From Escherichia coli (GTDB taxonomy: Bacteria; Pseudomonadota; Gammaproteobacteria; Enterobacterales; Enterobacteriaceae): a DNA stretch of 64,000 nucleotides. The DNA is taken from the NCBI RefSeq assembly GCF_024298765.1, contig NZ_CP101211.1, one strand, 5' to 3'. Shown here one piece after another: positions 48,001-62,317 of the stretch; positions within the stretch are counted from its first letter, which is position 1, and the number at the start of each line of letters is the position of its first letter. Position numbers: made by a program.

Positions 48001-51000
48001 AGCCAATGCGGTGATCGGGCATTATAATTTGGTCGGGCTATTATACGTGGGTAAAGGTAGTGGTAGGGAGAGGATCAGGTTAAATTGCATTTTCCCGGTT
48101 GCCTTCCCTGGCCTACCGGTTTCAGGTCAGACGCTAAGACCAGCGGTAATACTTAAAGTAGTCCTCATTTACAGCCAAAAACTCCCTTAAACCGTTCATT
48201 AATCCCTTTTCAAACGCTGTAACGATAAACCGGTATCCGTCCAGTGTTTCAATGTAGTAGATCCCGCCCGGTGTTATTCCAACATGCAACACCTCGGCTG
48301 TCATCATAAACTGGCCTTCCGGAAAATCATGCGACAGGTATATAAAACCCGTCGTGGCCGGTGCGGGTGTGGCATTCACTAAGACACCGTTAAACTGCTG
48401 CCCGTGCCTCGCCGGTACAAGCTCACTTCCCCTGGTTGACTTATCGAGCAGCCCCTTAACATCTTTTTGCTCTTTAGATGAGGTATAGCCCCGCACATCA
48501 CTCCCATCACCTGGGCGAGAGCCGGTGCCGACATGTGCAAGACGACGGTAAGCGCTGCGCATATTGATGTGGCAGGATGCCCCGGCTCTACCCTGAAGCC
48601 TTACGCCAAAATCTTCGCAAAGTAATAAAATCTGACGTAGCTGGTGTTCATACACGGACGCAGAAAGTGAAAGGTTGAAACTGGAAAAGGTCAGTTCTAA
48701 AACCTTTTCCCGTTTGTCATTGAAATGTGCTTCCAGCCTGATGATTGGCTTTTCCGACATTGCAAAAGCTTTGTCCGTTGCTCTGTACCGGCATTCATCT
48801 CCGAAACATTCTTCAACAACGCTGGCTATAACCGTGTCGTGATCGCCATCTTCCGGAGCTGGCACAAAGATTTCAAATTGTGCCGGTGTCTCCGGCTCCA
48901 GCAGAACGGGATATAAACGCGGAGAATTAAGCAATGCGCATTCAGAATTAATGAGCTTAACCCAGGCGCTTTTGTCGTCCGGATCCTTAAGCTGCTGTCC
49001 AAGGTTATCGCAAAAGTCTACTATCTGACGGGTATGCTCATCCGTGACTGCACAGATCAGGTTAAGACCATGCGTGGCCATACTCAATTCCCGGGTTCGG
49101 GACTGGGAATTGATCGACCAGGGGTTAAGTGAAAGCGAAATAGGGCTTATGGAAGGGACGACCGTCTCATTCTGCAAATCTGTAAGCTGGCAGTTCGCAG
49201 TAGGCTTCGGGGAAAGGGTACTAAATATGTAACTTGCCTGTTGTTTAGTACTGGCCTGGATATAAAACATCGCGTCCATGCTTGTATCCCGGGATGAAAT
49301 TGAAAATAGCTTCATTTTTAACCTTAATGGATGAGCGATTTATAGTCATGTGCTGACAAATGGACATTATGTGCGCCATCATTCCATTCAAAGAATAATC
49401 GATACTTAGAGTTTACTCGAATGGAGGAATAACGGTTTGACGTCATTCTTAAGCGTTCATAACGCAAGCTGTTGGATAATAACTCCCGCTCACTCTGGAC
49501 ATTATCCAGCGTTTCGAGTCGACACAGAATCGCGTTAATAATTTCAGAAGGAATACCTGCCGTTGTTTTTCCATTACGGAAGAACTTTTCAAGCCGTCTG
49601 TCTTTAAATGAATGGATCATAGTTCCTCCGTAATAATTGACCTTAAAATTAAATTAAAAGGGCTTTGAATTAATGAATCCCTAAAATGCGGGCGGCGACT
49701 GCCAGCTGCTTATCACTTAACTGACGCTGGTGGGTTAAAGAAGACTTAAGGCTTTCCAGAAAATTATTACTGCTGGATTGCTGGGTGATTGCATCAACCA
49801 TTTTTTGATGAGATCTGCACCATGCATTGAACGCAGAGTTGTGGGCGTTTTCAGTCCTCAAACGCTCGTTTTGCAAGGATGCTGACACTTTGCGGGCAGC
49901 TTGAGCATTAATGCGGTACAGCGCATTCAGCGTGTAAGCAGTGCGGGTCGTTTCGAGGCTGTAACCCGTGGCTTTACAAGCCATACAGCGACTTCTATAA
50001 AAATGCTTACGCTCTCCCCGACCATTGCATTTATCGCAAAGAATACGAAAAGTATATTCCGCAGTACCTTTTACAGAATCAACACAGCGGATTTTTGCGC
50101 TGGAGATTTCAATTCCACTGCGATCATAATATTTGGTCATAATGTGATTCCTCCGGTTAGTTCTGGAGTAATCATGACAGAATGAATCTACTGGCTAATA
50201 ACCTGAGAGTAAATATTTTAAAAAAACATTGAGAGAGGGTCTGCAAATTTATACACGAAGGATTCAAATATAATTTTGTTTAAAAAATTAAGAGCATTCT
50301 GAAGTAAAAGTGCATCAAAAAGCATTCATGGATAAATCATGTACTGGTGCCAGCCATTTAAACGCGGGCATTGTTCCGGAGTGATTAAACGGTTTAGCAT
50401 CATAGATTAAAACCAAAAGGAAGGCGTCCTTCCCGTCTCGGGAATATTACTTTCCCGTTTGCAATTTAAGAGCCACTTAATGAGAAAGTAATAATTAAGT
50501 CATGCTCAACTCTACATATTACATTGAGGATGGCGTAACAGGGTACGGCATACTACCGCACCCTTCTGAAGAGCTTATGTTTGAGGGAATTCTATAGCAA
50601 ATGTGGCCGTGCCAGATTGACCACTTACAGCGGGAGTAACGGGATACGTGCGCTCTTCACCATTACCAAGATCCAGTGACAGCGATTTAGTTTCACCAGG
50701 CTGGACCGTAACTCCGGCAACCGTAACGCCGAACTGGGCATTTTTCTGAACAGTCAGGGTTCCGTTTAACTGTCCGGTAATGATAGAACCGTCCTGACGC
50801 CGCAACACACTGGTTCGGATGATGGCCAGCGGCGTGTTGTCCGTTGCTTTCAGTGCTACGGCTGTGGCCAGCGTCTTGAGATTATCCAGCATAATCAGAT
50901 TCGCAGGCTGGTAGGTAAAATTAAGCGTTTTAGTGGTCCGGTTACCTGATTCGTCAATAGCCAGTGCCTCCAGATGATACATCTGTCCCGATTCGTCAGT

Positions 51001-60000: not shown

Positions 60001-62317
60001 CGATATCATATGACGAGACTAACAAGCAGCTGGATGTACTGGCGTCACTTGAAGGCGATGGTAACTGGTTCGACTCGGTCTCATTGAGGGAATTTTATCT
60101 TTCCGATAAGAACACCGGTACCCGGATGTCACCAACAGGCGTAATCAAATCTCGTATCTCAGGTAACTACACGATTGCTTATGATTTATCCCGTCAGTCT
60201 GAAGGAAAATACAACGTTGAGGTCAACATCAGGGACTTCTTCCAGAACCAGACCAATAAAACTTTCGGAGAAATTGCTCTGGATAACACTCCTCCGACAG
60301 TGGCCATAACATTCGACGGAAAGCCGGTAAAAGACGATACGGTAGTGTACGGCCTGGAGAACCTCAGGATCGCTCTGGCAGATAATCTGACAACCCCGAG
60401 GATAACCCGTCTTCAGCTCGTAGGTGGCCCCACAGCTGATAACGTTGAGCTTACGTGGTCACCGGCAGGCAAAGATACATACATGCCTGAGTATCCGAGG
60501 CTGTTCCCAAATTTCGAACCATCTGAAAATTATTCAATTAGCGTAACAGTTGCCGATAGTCAGTCGAATACCAAAACCTATACTCAGAAGTTCAGTTATC
60601 TACCGAATAACCTTGTGCAGTTACATAATCTACGCACATTGTCGGTCAGTTCACCTCTCAAAACGACAGATGGCGTACCACTTGCGTACCTGTCCACTAA
60701 CGTTCTGCGTAAGACAAATGGAGAAATTGCTAAAGGGGTCCAGAACGCAACGCTGACTGTGCGGAAGGATGCAGCCTTCGGTATTAAATTTAATGGGGCA
60801 CAGGCGGCTCCAGGCGAGTCAGTTGAGGTGCAAATAGATATGGGCCAGGGGGATAATCTTCTGTTACCCGTTTATCCTTCCGAAAATGGGAAAGTTGGCA
60901 CCTCAGAATTCATGATTCAGATCGACGAGTTGAAGTAACTACCCGGAGCCGACAGTAAAACTGACGGCTTCAATTTTACTGCCCTCCTCGACTCCGATCA
61001 GCCAGTACGTCTTCAGAGATTCGCAAGGAAGAACCGAAAGAAAAGTTACTTTAATCGTACGTTTCCAGCGATGCTTTCAAAAGACAATGCATACTCGTTG
61101 ATTACGACAATGGGAGTGAGTGTCGAACCCCTTGAGTAAGGATACTTGGTAAATATACAGCCCCGGGGATTCTCTTCCTTCAACCGGGGATGACAACGGG
61201 AGTGAGTCCGGCAACTCACACCTGTTGTCACTTCTCTGACATATCGTCATACGAGCTTACTCAAGCGCATCCACAAAGATGGGATCGTTTTGAATCTAAA
61301 CTGGTACTGGTTAGCCAGTCACTTGCATCTACTCCCCCGTCGATATTTAAGTGACAATTGTAGTGATCTGCAATACTGGTGTCTCAGAAACACTGTGTTG
61401 TGGTCAAGTTTTTTTGGACACGCCGATCAGATGGTAGGGTTATGCACAGGCGGGCAACTGGGCGGCAGGGCTGGCCAGCGTTTCGTACTGTGCGGGTGAT
61501 CGGTAGCCAAGTTTTGAATGCAATCGGGTACTGTTATAAAAGTTAACGATGTAGTCGGTGATGTCTTGTTTGGCTTCTGTATGGTTGGCATACCGAGTCT
61601 GCCAGACACGCTCCATTTTCAAATTCAGAAAGAACCGCTCCATCACGGCATTGTCCCAGCAATTACCCTTGCGGCTCATGCTGAGTACCAGACCATGGTT
61701 TTCAAGTAATTGCCGGTGTTCAGCACTGGCATATTGACTGCCCCGGTCCGAATGAACCAATAAACCCGGTGCCGGTTGGCGAACCGAAATAGCCATGCTC
61801 AACGCATCGCACACCAGCTGTGCAGGCATGGTCGGTGCCATGGACCAACCCACGATGCGACGTGAATACAGATCCAGCACAGCGGCCAGATATAGCCAAC
61901 CGCTGTCGGTCCGAATGTACGTCACATCGCACACCCAGGCCGTATTGGGTGCTTCAGGCTCAAACTGACGGTTGAGCACGTTCTCTGCCACCGGCAAATG
62001 GTGTTTGCTATCGGTGGTATGAGCGAACTTGCGACGCCAACAGGCCTTGAGTCCACAGGCTTTCATCAAGGTACGACAGCGATGACGTCCAACATCATGG
62101 CCCTGGGCACGCAGGGCTGCACTCAAACGACGACTGCCATAGGTGCGACCACTGGCAAGAAAAACCGCCTGAGCATGCACGCTGTCCTGGCAAATAGGTT
62201 TGGGTGTATTGACTCTGCGACGCGCTGCGTAGTAACCAGAGCGACTGATGTCCAACGCCTGACAGACCTGCTTGATCGGGGCCTGCTTCGCTAACTCAGT
62301 GACAACATCGTGGATCA

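What the first reader, a model, noticed from the sequence alone, without database searches (positions are those of the whole stretch)
50575..60938. Two paralogous ~805-aa secreted proteins in divergent orientation bracket a 5.5-kb module
Both have signal peptides and the same block order but are substantially diverged. They face outward around nine small genes and an orphan methyltransferase. IncHI-type plasmids are reported to encode large Ig-like-domain proteins involved in conjugation, so these may be related surface factors; the arrangement could also reflect an inverted duplication.
Basis: partly seen in the sequence, partly recalled or inferred. Interest (0 to 1): 0.55.

Follow-up and report, generated by a model that had tools for sequence, protein, structure and literature searches.

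The report
IncHI2 copies of RSP2-type conjugation proteins
The two large divergent genes are diverged members of a known plasmid family of secreted, immunoglobulin-like proteins that help conjugation (RSP2 of plasmid R27 is the tested example); they are not a recent inverted duplication, and the small genes between them are an unrelated, partly dispensable insert.

Summary
Gene A (50575-52965, minus) and gene B (58518-60938, plus) are full-length paralogs (29% identity, E 1e-87) that point outward around a 5.5-kb block. That block holds 8 annotated genes, not ten. The window is an IncHI2 conjugative plasmid (MOBH, MPF_F), and the locus is near-identical in more than 1,100 plasmid records.

Both proteins have the DUF4165 / Big_3_2 / Big_3_3 architecture of R27 RSP2 and of the IncA/C protein ALG87338.1, both shown experimentally to promote conjugation. 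AlphaFold models are confident (pLDDT 91-92) and all-beta. Fold searches return only Ig-like beta-sandwich chains, with the SiiE adhesin on top.

A falls in the RSP2 clade (38% identity, 98% bootstrap). B belongs to a different clade, sister to a third paralog, C, that lies beyond repHI2. The published statement that IncHI2 lacks rsp2 rests on BLASTn, which cannot detect this homology.

There is no DNA-level inverted repeat and no mirrored gene content. Related plasmids carry the paralogs as head-to-tail arrays, or inside the pilus operon between the pilin gene and dsbC/traC. The bracket layout is therefore a lineage-specific rearrangement.

Verdict: new members of a known kind, of modest interest.

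The parts
50575..52965 (-). Gene A: 796-aa secreted multi-Ig-like protein of the RSP2 clade (WP_000694550). The maximal ORF extends to 52992.
52906..52965 (-). Predicted Sec signal peptide of A (residues 1-20, MKIKLALLIAFAGFSAGASA|E)
   Evidence: Read directly from the sequence; Ala20 is at least 90% conserved in the family alignment; N-terminal helix followed by a pLDDT<50 linker in the model.
50418..50444 (.). Terminator-like hairpin about 140 nt downstream of A, matched on both strands
   Evidence: Consensus scan only; the total number of sites is not above chance.
52966..53368 (.). AT-rich region upstream of A (GC 0.36); presumed promoter region
   Evidence: Composition; it is among the most variable segments between IncHI2 lineages (5.2% difference). 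No promoter was demonstrated.
53369..55128 (-). Four small minus-strand genes (83, 80, 145 and 171 aa) of unknown function; dispensable
   Evidence: ORFs and RefSeq CDS. No NCBIfam or PADLOC hits, only PHROG families of unknown function. All four are deleted in a common IncHI2 variant that keeps A and B intact. Absent from the fetched part of R27 and from L008.
55129..55457 (.). AT-rich divergent intergenic region (GC 0.34) between the two small-gene groups
   Evidence: Composition.
55458..56222 (+). 254-aa protein of unknown function, with homologs next to rsp2 in R27
   Evidence: 61% identity to one R27 gene and 33% to a neighbouring R27 gene by tblastn; no Pfam or NCBIfam match.
56303..57064 (+). 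253-aa orphan SAM-dependent methyltransferase of the N6-adenine DNA methyltransferase type (NPPF motif)
   Evidence: Pfam MTS 8e-6 and weaker N6-methylase families; PHROG DNA-methyltransferase families down to 6e-45; PADLOC type II and orphan MTase models; no family search matched a restriction enzyme among the other module genes.
57158..58053 (+). Two small genes (87 aa and 203 aa) of unknown function
   Evidence: ORFs and RefSeq CDS. The 87-aa protein is 68% identical to an R27 gene near rsp2. Only PHROG families of unknown function match.
58054..58517 (.). Region upstream of B (GC 0.39) with a terminator-like hairpin at 58147-58167, suggesting that B has its own promoter
   Evidence: inference only.
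58518..60938 (+). Gene B: 806-aa secreted multi-Ig-like protein of the B clade of the same family (WP_000681217)
   Evidence: ORF; Pfam DUF4165, Big_3_2, Big_3_3 3e-63; 32% identity to RSP2 and 41-43% to paralog C; AlphaFold pLDDT 91.2, all-beta; Foldseek returns only multi-beta-sandwich chains; the protein is identical between the two IncHI2 lineages, with 9 synonymous and 0 nonsynonymous changes.
58518..58580 (+). Predicted Sec signal peptide of B (residues 1-21, ...SVQAPA|QIYES)
   Evidence: Read directly from the sequence; Ala21 is at least 90% conserved; the model shows a helix followed by a low-pLDDT linker.
48134..50140 (-). Conserved neighbours downstream of A: a 156-aa Cys-rich protein, a RelE/ParE-family toxin (98 aa) and a 393-aa protein
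   Evidence: 65%, 90% and 63% identity to R27 genes near rsp2. g156-like genes and a HigB-like toxin also follow the A-type gene in L008.

Best explanation
A and B are two of the three IncHI2 paralogs (the third, C, lies beyond repHI2, outside the window) of the RSP2-type family of plasmid 'Big' proteins. Each is made with a Sec signal peptide and exported to the periplasm. There a conserved Cys pair probably forms a disulfide, and the chain folds into about seven Ig-like beta-sandwich domains. By analogy with R27 RSP2 and IncA/C ALG87338.1, the proteins then reach the cell surface or medium by a route that depends on the conjugative pilus machinery. They bind the conjugative pilus (and flagella) and raise mating efficiency, mainly in liquid culture and at about 25 C.

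Shown here: family membership, fold, purifying selection, and linkage to MOBH/MPF_F conjugation systems.

Inferred: export route, binding partners, and the effect on conjugation for A and B themselves.

The divergent layout is a rearranged remnant of an ancestral head-to-tail paralog array. The genes in between are unrelated accessory cargo.
For: The replicon is IncHI2A, MOBH, MPF_F, and the locus lies between Tra1 (mobH, traD, trhH) and repHI2. That matches the published position of rsp2 between Tra1 and Tra2 in R27 (PMC8730810).

Architecture: both proteins are DUF4165 / Big_3_2 / Big_3_3, as described for RSP2 (794 aa) and ALG87338.1. In the 70-member alignment, 70, 69 and 66 members match Big_3_3, DUF4165 and Big_3_2.

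Homology to RSP2: A 38%, E 8e-174, reciprocal best hit; B 32%, E 4e-106. The A/RSP2 clade has 98% bootstrap support.

Selection: dN/dS is 0.049 for A, and B has 0 of 9 changes nonsynonymous.

Link to the pilus: in IncC and Vibrio MOBH/MPF_F plasmids the long-class homolog lies between the pilin gene traA and dsbC/traC. The family has exactly two conserved Cys residues.

Experimental precedent: rsp2 deletion lowers R27 transfer about 100-fold in liquid culture; RSP2 binds pili and flagella, and its export needs TrhA, TrhH and RSP; the pKAZ3 knockout loses transfer at 25 C.
Against: There are no experimental data on the IncHI2 proteins. A shares only 38% identity with RSP2, whereas B and C are about 75-82% identical between the same two plasmid groups. 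A also sits at a different position relative to the small genes, so strict orthology and identical function are not assured.

B is a pseudogene in IncHI1 plasmids, and C is cut by IS30 in R27, yet R27 conjugates. B-type and C-type paralogs are therefore not essential for transfer.

In IncHI plasmids the genes lie outside the tra operons. The ALG87338.1 knockout did not change motility, so flagellum binding is not universal in the family.
Confidence: 0.72

Rival explanations
1. A and B are general adhesins or biofilm factors for colonising hosts or surfaces. They are carried as plasmid cargo and play no direct part in DNA transfer.
For: The best structural matches are adhesins and surface-layer proteins: SiiE, the Sap S-layer protein, cadherins. 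In IncHI plasmids the genes sit outside the tra operons, among accessory genes.
Against: Every carrier whose typing was checked is a MOBH/MPF_F conjugative plasmid, and 2,740 of 3,058 matching records are typed conjugative. In IncC and Vibrio plasmids the homolog lies inside the pilus operon, next to the pilin gene. The two tested family members affect conjugation.
Confidence: 0.12
2. The pair arose by a local inverted duplication and forms a functional cassette together with the 5.5-kb block it brackets.
For: The proteins have equal length, the same domain order and opposite orientation.
Against: There is no nucleotide similarity between A and B, and no long inverted repeats. A and B belong to different deep clades (0% bootstrap as sisters), and B is closer to C. 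A-type, B-type and C-type genes all exist separately in IncHI1 and in a Yersinia/Rahnella-like plasmid, where they form a head-to-tail array. The intervening genes are absent there, and four of them are deleted in many IncHI2 plasmids.
Confidence: 0.02
3. Only one paralog is functional in conjugation. B (and C) are redundant or decaying copies, as in IncHI1.
For: In IncHI1, B has an internal deletion and a frameshift, and C is truncated by IS30 in R27. Some IncHI2 records carry IS insertions in these genes.
Against: B is the most conserved stretch of the whole locus between the IncHI2 lineages (0.37% nucleotide difference, no amino-acid change) and is intact in about 1,000 records. That pattern indicates strong purifying selection in IncHI2.
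Confidence: 0.1
4. A and B are periplasmic macroglobulin-like protease inhibitors, or some other non-adhesive periplasmic proteins.
For: Foldseek lists alpha-2-macroglobulin, C3 and C5 chains among the top hits for B.
Against: The TM-scores are 0.1-0.2, so the match reflects only strings of beta-sandwich domains. The proteins are half the size of bacterial macroglobulins. Their only two Cys residues lie in the motifs CTIPxGxxSCE, so there is no CGEQ thioester site. RSP2 is found in the secretome.
Confidence: 0.03

Closest known systems
RSP2 (R0055) of IncHI1 plasmid R27 (Huttener et al. 2022, PMC8730810)
   Same: Same family, size (794 vs 796/806 aa), signal peptide and DUF4165 / Big / Big_3 architecture, with full-length homology. 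A is in the same clade. The genomic region is the same (between the Tra regions, near the HI replicon and the g156/RelE genes).
   Different: A is only 38% identical and B 32%. There is no nucleotide-level similarity, which is why the authors' BLASTn search reported IncHI2 as lacking rsp2. The gene's position relative to the small genes differs. IncHI2 keeps three intact paralogs, whereas R27 keeps one.
ALG87338.1 of IncA/C plasmid pKAZ3, and the IncC/Vibrio homologs
   Same: The first ~800 residues form the same module (B is 26-32% identical over residues 1-800). These plasmids use the same MOBH/MPF_F conjugation type. The pKAZ3 protein is secreted and is needed for transfer at 25 C.
   Different: These proteins are about 1,800-1,840 aa, with a roughly 1,000-aa C-terminal extension. 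They are single-copy and lie inside the pilus operon between traA and dsbC/traC.
RSP (R0009) of IncHI plasmids
   Same: It is a secreted plasmid Big protein required for conjugation and the reported interaction partner of RSP2.
   Different: It belongs to a different family. It is 1,432 aa and shares only a ~90-aa local match with A (E 2e-5). It is not encoded in this window.
SiiE giant adhesin of Salmonella (BIg domains; PDB 2yn3)
   Different: There is no detectable sequence homology. SiiE has 53 repeats and is secreted by a type 1 system, whereas A and B have Sec signal peptides and about seven non-identical domains.
PrgB aggregation substance of Enterococcus plasmid pCF10 (Ig-like domains; PDB 8beg)
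   Same: It is a functional analogue (from general knowledge of PrgB): a plasmid-encoded surface protein with Ig-like domains that promotes mating. It appears among the Foldseek hits for B.
   Different: It comes from a Gram-positive host. From general knowledge it is cell-wall anchored and has an adhesin domain with no counterpart in A or B. The similarity is at the level of generic domain type only (TM about 0.2).

Membership tests
RSP2-type plasmid Big proteins (DUF4165 / Big_3_2 / Big_3_3) | Domain architecture: N-terminal DUF4165, then Big_3_2 (called Big_1 in the paper), then a C-terminal Big_3_3 | tested here: met
   A: E-values 4e-13, 3e-22 and 2e-40. B: 9e-14, 6e-27 and 3e-63. The architecture is found in 66-70 of 70 family members.
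RSP2-type plasmid Big proteins (DUF4165 / Big_3_2 / Big_3_3) | Full-length sequence homology to the experimentally characterised R27 RSP2 | tested here: met
   A: 38% over 802 columns, E 8e-174. B: 32% over 816 columns, E 4e-106.
RSP2-type plasmid Big proteins (DUF4165 / Big_3_2 / Big_3_3) | Placement in the same subclade as RSP2 (counterpart or ortholog status) | tested here: inconclusive
   A groups with RSP2 at 98% bootstrap; B does not and falls in the B+C clade at 88%. However, the 38% identity between A and RSP2 is far lower than the 75-82% seen for B and C between the same plasmid groups, and the gene's position differs. Strict orthology is therefore uncertain.
RSP2-type plasmid Big proteins (DUF4165 / Big_3_2 / Big_3_3) | N-terminal Sec signal peptide | tested here: met
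   Judged by inspection of the n-, h- and c-regions, the conserved Ala at -1 and the appearance of the models. No dedicated predictor was available.
RSP2-type plasmid Big proteins (DUF4165 / Big_3_2 / Big_3_3) | Encoded on a MOBH/MPF_F conjugative plasmid | tested here: met
   IncHI2A, MOBH, MPF_F. All other carriers checked have the same typing.
RSP2-type plasmid Big proteins (DUF4165 / Big_3_2 / Big_3_3) | Exported to the medium in a TrhA/TrhH/RSP-dependent way; binds the conjugative pilus and flagella; a deletion lowers conjugation | not testable with these tools
   Known only for R27 RSP2, and in part for pKAZ3 ALG87338.1.
RSP (R0009) family | Full-length homology to the 1,432-aa RSP | tested here: not met
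   There is only a 93-aa local match, E 2e-5.
Recent inverted duplication | Reverse-complement nucleotide similarity between the two arms, with the two copies as each other's closest relatives | tested here: not met
   blastn of A against B gives no hit. The longest inverted repeat is 31 nt at 71% complementarity. A and B are sisters in 0% of bootstraps.
Alpha-2-macroglobulin / thioester proteins | Thioester motif (CGEQ) and a length of about 1,500 aa or more | tested here: not met
   Each protein has only two Cys residues, at A 422/431 and B 436/445, in the context CTIPxGxxSCE. The proteins are about 800 aa long. Foldseek TM-scores are 0.1-0.2.
Autotransporter, intimin-type or type 1-secreted giant adhesins | A beta-barrel translocator domain, or many identical BIg repeats | tested here: not met
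   Pfam finds none of these domains. The roughly seven domains are not identical to one another. A C-terminal type 1 secretion signal was not tested.

The most novel reading that the evidence does not exclude
IncHI-type plasmids ancestrally carry a set of three or four specialised, non-redundant pilus-associated Ig-like proteins (A/RSP2, B and C types). Their ends are conserved, perhaps for docking to a shared partner, and their central domains are variable, perhaps for recognising different targets such as the pilus, flagella or the recipient surface. On this reading IncHI2 has the full working set, and the R27 model plasmid is a degenerate case that retains only RSP2. The current RSP/RSP2 picture would then understate the system, and the fast-diverging A/RSP2 lineage would tune mating specificity.
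Probability: 0.2. Interest if true: 0.6.

Novelty: new member of a known kind. Interest (0 to 1): 0.36.

Why it matters
IncHI2 plasmids are major carriers of mcr-1 and other resistance genes. The IncHI Big proteins are being explored as vaccine and nanobody targets for blocking plasmid spread (PMC11268884). The literature states that IncHI2 lacks rsp2. This analysis shows that the statement is an artefact of nucleotide BLAST. IncHI2 carries three intact RSP2-family genes under purifying selection, and one of them belongs to the RSP2 clade. This matters for knockout design, because redundancy is likely, and for choosing antigens that cover IncHI2. It also places the family in context as a pilus-linked accessory of MOBH/MPF_F conjugation systems in general.

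Tried and rejected
- **Inverted duplication.** I searched 49500-61500 for inverted repeats and ran blastn of A against B. Both found nothing beyond short chance-level matches.
- **Mirrored paralogy.** All-against-all BLASTP of the intervening genes found none.
- **Solved homologs.** A sequence search of PDB with B gave no meaningful hit (best E 0.88).
- **Curated families.** NCBIfam has no family for A or B, and R27 RSP2 and the off-window paralog C gave only far-sub-threshold matches. PADLOC found no defence-system match for A, B or the small genes, apart from generic methyltransferase models.
- **Regulatory signals.** Promoter and terminator scans were at chance level: 14 promoter-like sites against 15.5 expected, and 14 terminator-like sites against 11.2. 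I make no regulatory claim.
- **Literature on the IncHI2 copies.** Searches found no description of them and no expression data.
- **Middle block as functional partner.** I considered this and rejected it. Four of its genes are deleted in many conjugative IncHI2 plasmids, and the block is absent beside the paralogs in related plasmids.

**Limits of the analysis.** Model coordinates could not be inspected, so the count of about seven domains comes from the secondary-structure strings and Pfam boundaries. The tree is neighbour-joining only.
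Full report
**What is there**

The window is part of an IncHI2 conjugative plasmid. The segment 50000-61200 is 100% identical to pR18.0877_278k (IncHI2A, MOBH relaxase, MPF_F) and matches 1,139 plasmid records, 983 of them over at least 80% of its length.

Two ORFs lie exactly where the finding puts them:
- A, at 50575-52992 on the minus strand. RefSeq starts it at 52965, which gives 796 aa.
- B, at 58518-60938 on the plus strand, 806 aa.

They align end to end at 29% identity, E 1e-87, and are transcribed away from each other across 5,525 bp. RefSeq annotates eight genes in that spacer: four small minus-strand genes and four plus-strand genes, one of which is a 253-aa methyltransferase.

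**What the two proteins are**

Pfam gives both proteins the same architecture, DUF4165 / Big_3_2 / Big_3_3. The literature describes this architecture for RSP2 (R0055) of the IncHI1 plasmid R27. RSP2 is a 794-aa secreted protein that binds the conjugative pilus and flagella. Its export needs TrhA, TrhH and RSP, and deleting it lowers transfer about 100-fold in liquid culture (PMC8730810). The same architecture is described for the 1,843-aa ALG87338.1 of IncA/C plasmid pKAZ3, which is needed for transfer at 25 C.

I fetched R27 and compared the proteins directly:
- A is 38% identical to RSP2 over the full length (E 8e-174), and the two are reciprocal best hits.
- B is 32% identical to RSP2 (E 4e-106).
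- RSP itself shares only a ~90-aa local match with A.

A third paralog, C (818 aa), lies beyond repHI2, outside the window.

**Fold**

I built a 70-member alignment from a search of 1.84 billion cluster representatives. That search returned only 288 family representatives, in a short class of ~800 aa and a long class of ~1,800 aa. With this alignment AlphaFold gives confident all-beta models: pLDDT 91.9 with pTM 0.78 for A, and pLDDT 91.2 with pTM 0.75 for B.

The secondary-structure strings suggest about seven sandwich-sized domains. I could not inspect the model coordinates. Each protein has exactly two Cys residues, and both positions are at least 90% conserved across the family. This is consistent with a disulfide formed in the periplasm.

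**Not an inverted duplication**

- blastn finds no similarity between the two genes, and the only inverted repeats in the locus are 18-31 nt at 71-89% complementarity.
- The intervening genes show no mirrored paralogy.
- In a neighbour-joining tree with 200 bootstraps, A groups with RSP2 (98%) and B groups with the C clade (88%). A and B are never sisters.
- The three lineages predate the IncHI1/IncHI2 split. C is 82% identical between the two groups. In IncHI1, B survives as a pseudogene with an internal deletion and a frameshift; the surviving parts are 67-86% identical to IncHI2 B.
- The A/RSP2 pair is much more diverged (38%) than B or C. It has either evolved faster or one gene has been replaced, so strict orthology is uncertain.

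**The layout is not conserved**

- A Yersinia/Rahnella-like plasmid carries a head-to-tail array of C-type, B-type, B-type and A-type genes. These are followed by g156-like genes and a HigB/RelE toxin, and none of the IncHI2 middle genes is present apart from a weak methyltransferase-domain match.
- Klebsiella IncFIB/IncHI1B plasmids carry three family genes in tandem, and a metagenomic relative of RSP2 sits directly behind a C-type gene.
- In IncHI1, RSP2 and the B remnant are adjacent and divergent. Homologs of two of the middle genes lie on the other side of RSP2.
- A common IncHI2 variant lacks all four minus-strand small genes but keeps A and B and is still typed conjugative.

The 'bracket' is therefore a lineage-specific rearrangement. 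The middle block is accessory cargo of unknown function, apart from an orphan N6-adenine-type DNA methyltransferase.

**Evidence bearing on function**

- Between the two IncHI2 lineages, which are 98.2% identical, A has dN/dS 0.049. B has 9 synonymous and no nonsynonymous changes and is the most conserved stretch of the locus. Both genes are maintained by selection.
- Every carrier whose typing I checked is MOBH plus MPF_F.
- In IncC and Vibrio plasmids the long-class homolog lies inside the pilus operon, in the order traL, traE, traK, traB, traV, traA (pilin), the Ig-like gene, dsbC, traC. This ties the family to the conjugative pilus independently of the published experiments.
- Among the paralogs, the C-terminal ~200 residues are the most conserved (41-56%) and the centre is the least (13-31% between A and B). 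One possible reading is a shared docking end and divergent target-binding middles. This is inference only.

**Relation to the literature**

The mSphere paper states that IncHI2 plasmids lack rsp2. Its Table S2 is headed 'BLASTn R0055 vs plasmids db'. Nucleotide BLAST of rsp2 against this window gives nothing significant, with a best E of 0.13. The published negative therefore reflects the search method. At the protein level IncHI2 has three intact RSP2-family genes. I found no paper in the held library that describes them. RefSeq labels them only 'Ig-like domain-containing protein'.

**Verdict**

The Ig-like conjugation-factor interpretation is supported and sharpened to the RSP2 family. The inverted-duplication and module ideas are rejected. 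These are new, uncharacterised members of a known kind. Their role in conjugation is inferred and has not been shown. It is tempered by the fact that R27 conjugates with its B-type and C-type copies inactivated.

Noticed in passing
window 48134-49620 (minus strand): A RelE/ParE-family toxin gene (49324-49620) is followed 9 nt later by a 393-aa ORF that matches no family, and no recognisable antitoxin is present. The pair is conserved in R27 (90% and 63% identity), and a HigB-like toxin occupies the equivalent place in L008. The 393-aa protein could be an atypical antitoxin.
   Followed up: partly
window 63013-63915: There are eleven tandem copies of an 81-bp unit (81% matches), just before the position of repHI2 in the matching plasmid. 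They are probably iteron-like repeats of the IncHI2 replicon. They generate long spurious ORFs in several frames.
   Followed up: partly
window 61440-62680: An IS3-family element (annotated ISKpn18 in the matching record) is inserted between B and the repHI2 repeats.
   Followed up: no
L004 (R27) 11630-13250 and 4926-8605: In R27 the B-type paralog is a pseudogene (residues ~349-607 deleted, plus a frameshift) and the C-type paralog is interrupted by IS30. RSP2 is therefore the only intact family member in the model plasmid. This may explain why deleting it alone gives a clear phenotype.
   Followed up: partly
L007 (NZ_LT795115) compared with window 53369-55128: A frequent IncHI2 variant (hits covering 83% of the query, H81-H90) has lost about 1.9 kb that carries all four minus-strand small genes. 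A short 55-aa ORF remains in their place.
   Followed up: partly
window 49670-50140; L008 13386-14577: A 156-aa Cys-rich protein (CxxC pairs, with weak DnaJ zinc-finger-like matches) travels with A-type genes in IncHI2 and IncHI1. It is present in two copies in the Yersinia/Rahnella-like plasmid. This is a possible functional link to the Big proteins, but I did not examine it.
   Followed up: no
window 56303-57064; L004 2613-4289: The small orphan methyltransferase matches the methyltransferase domains of very large phage and plasmid proteins (PHROG profiles of 1,259-3,925 positions). It is also 29% identical over 140 residues to the R27 DUF4942 protein, which sits beside the C-type paralog. 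The surrounding region (Hok toxin, other methyltransferases, a PAPS-reductase-like gene in L005) looks like an anti-restriction or establishment gene region.
   Followed up: no
L013-L015 (IncC and Vibrio plasmids): In these plasmids the long-class homologs (~1,800 aa) lie directly between the pilin gene traA and dsbC/traC. In one IncC plasmid (L013), an ISEcp1-blaCMY-6-blc-sugE insert separates traA from the Ig-like gene.
   Followed up: partly
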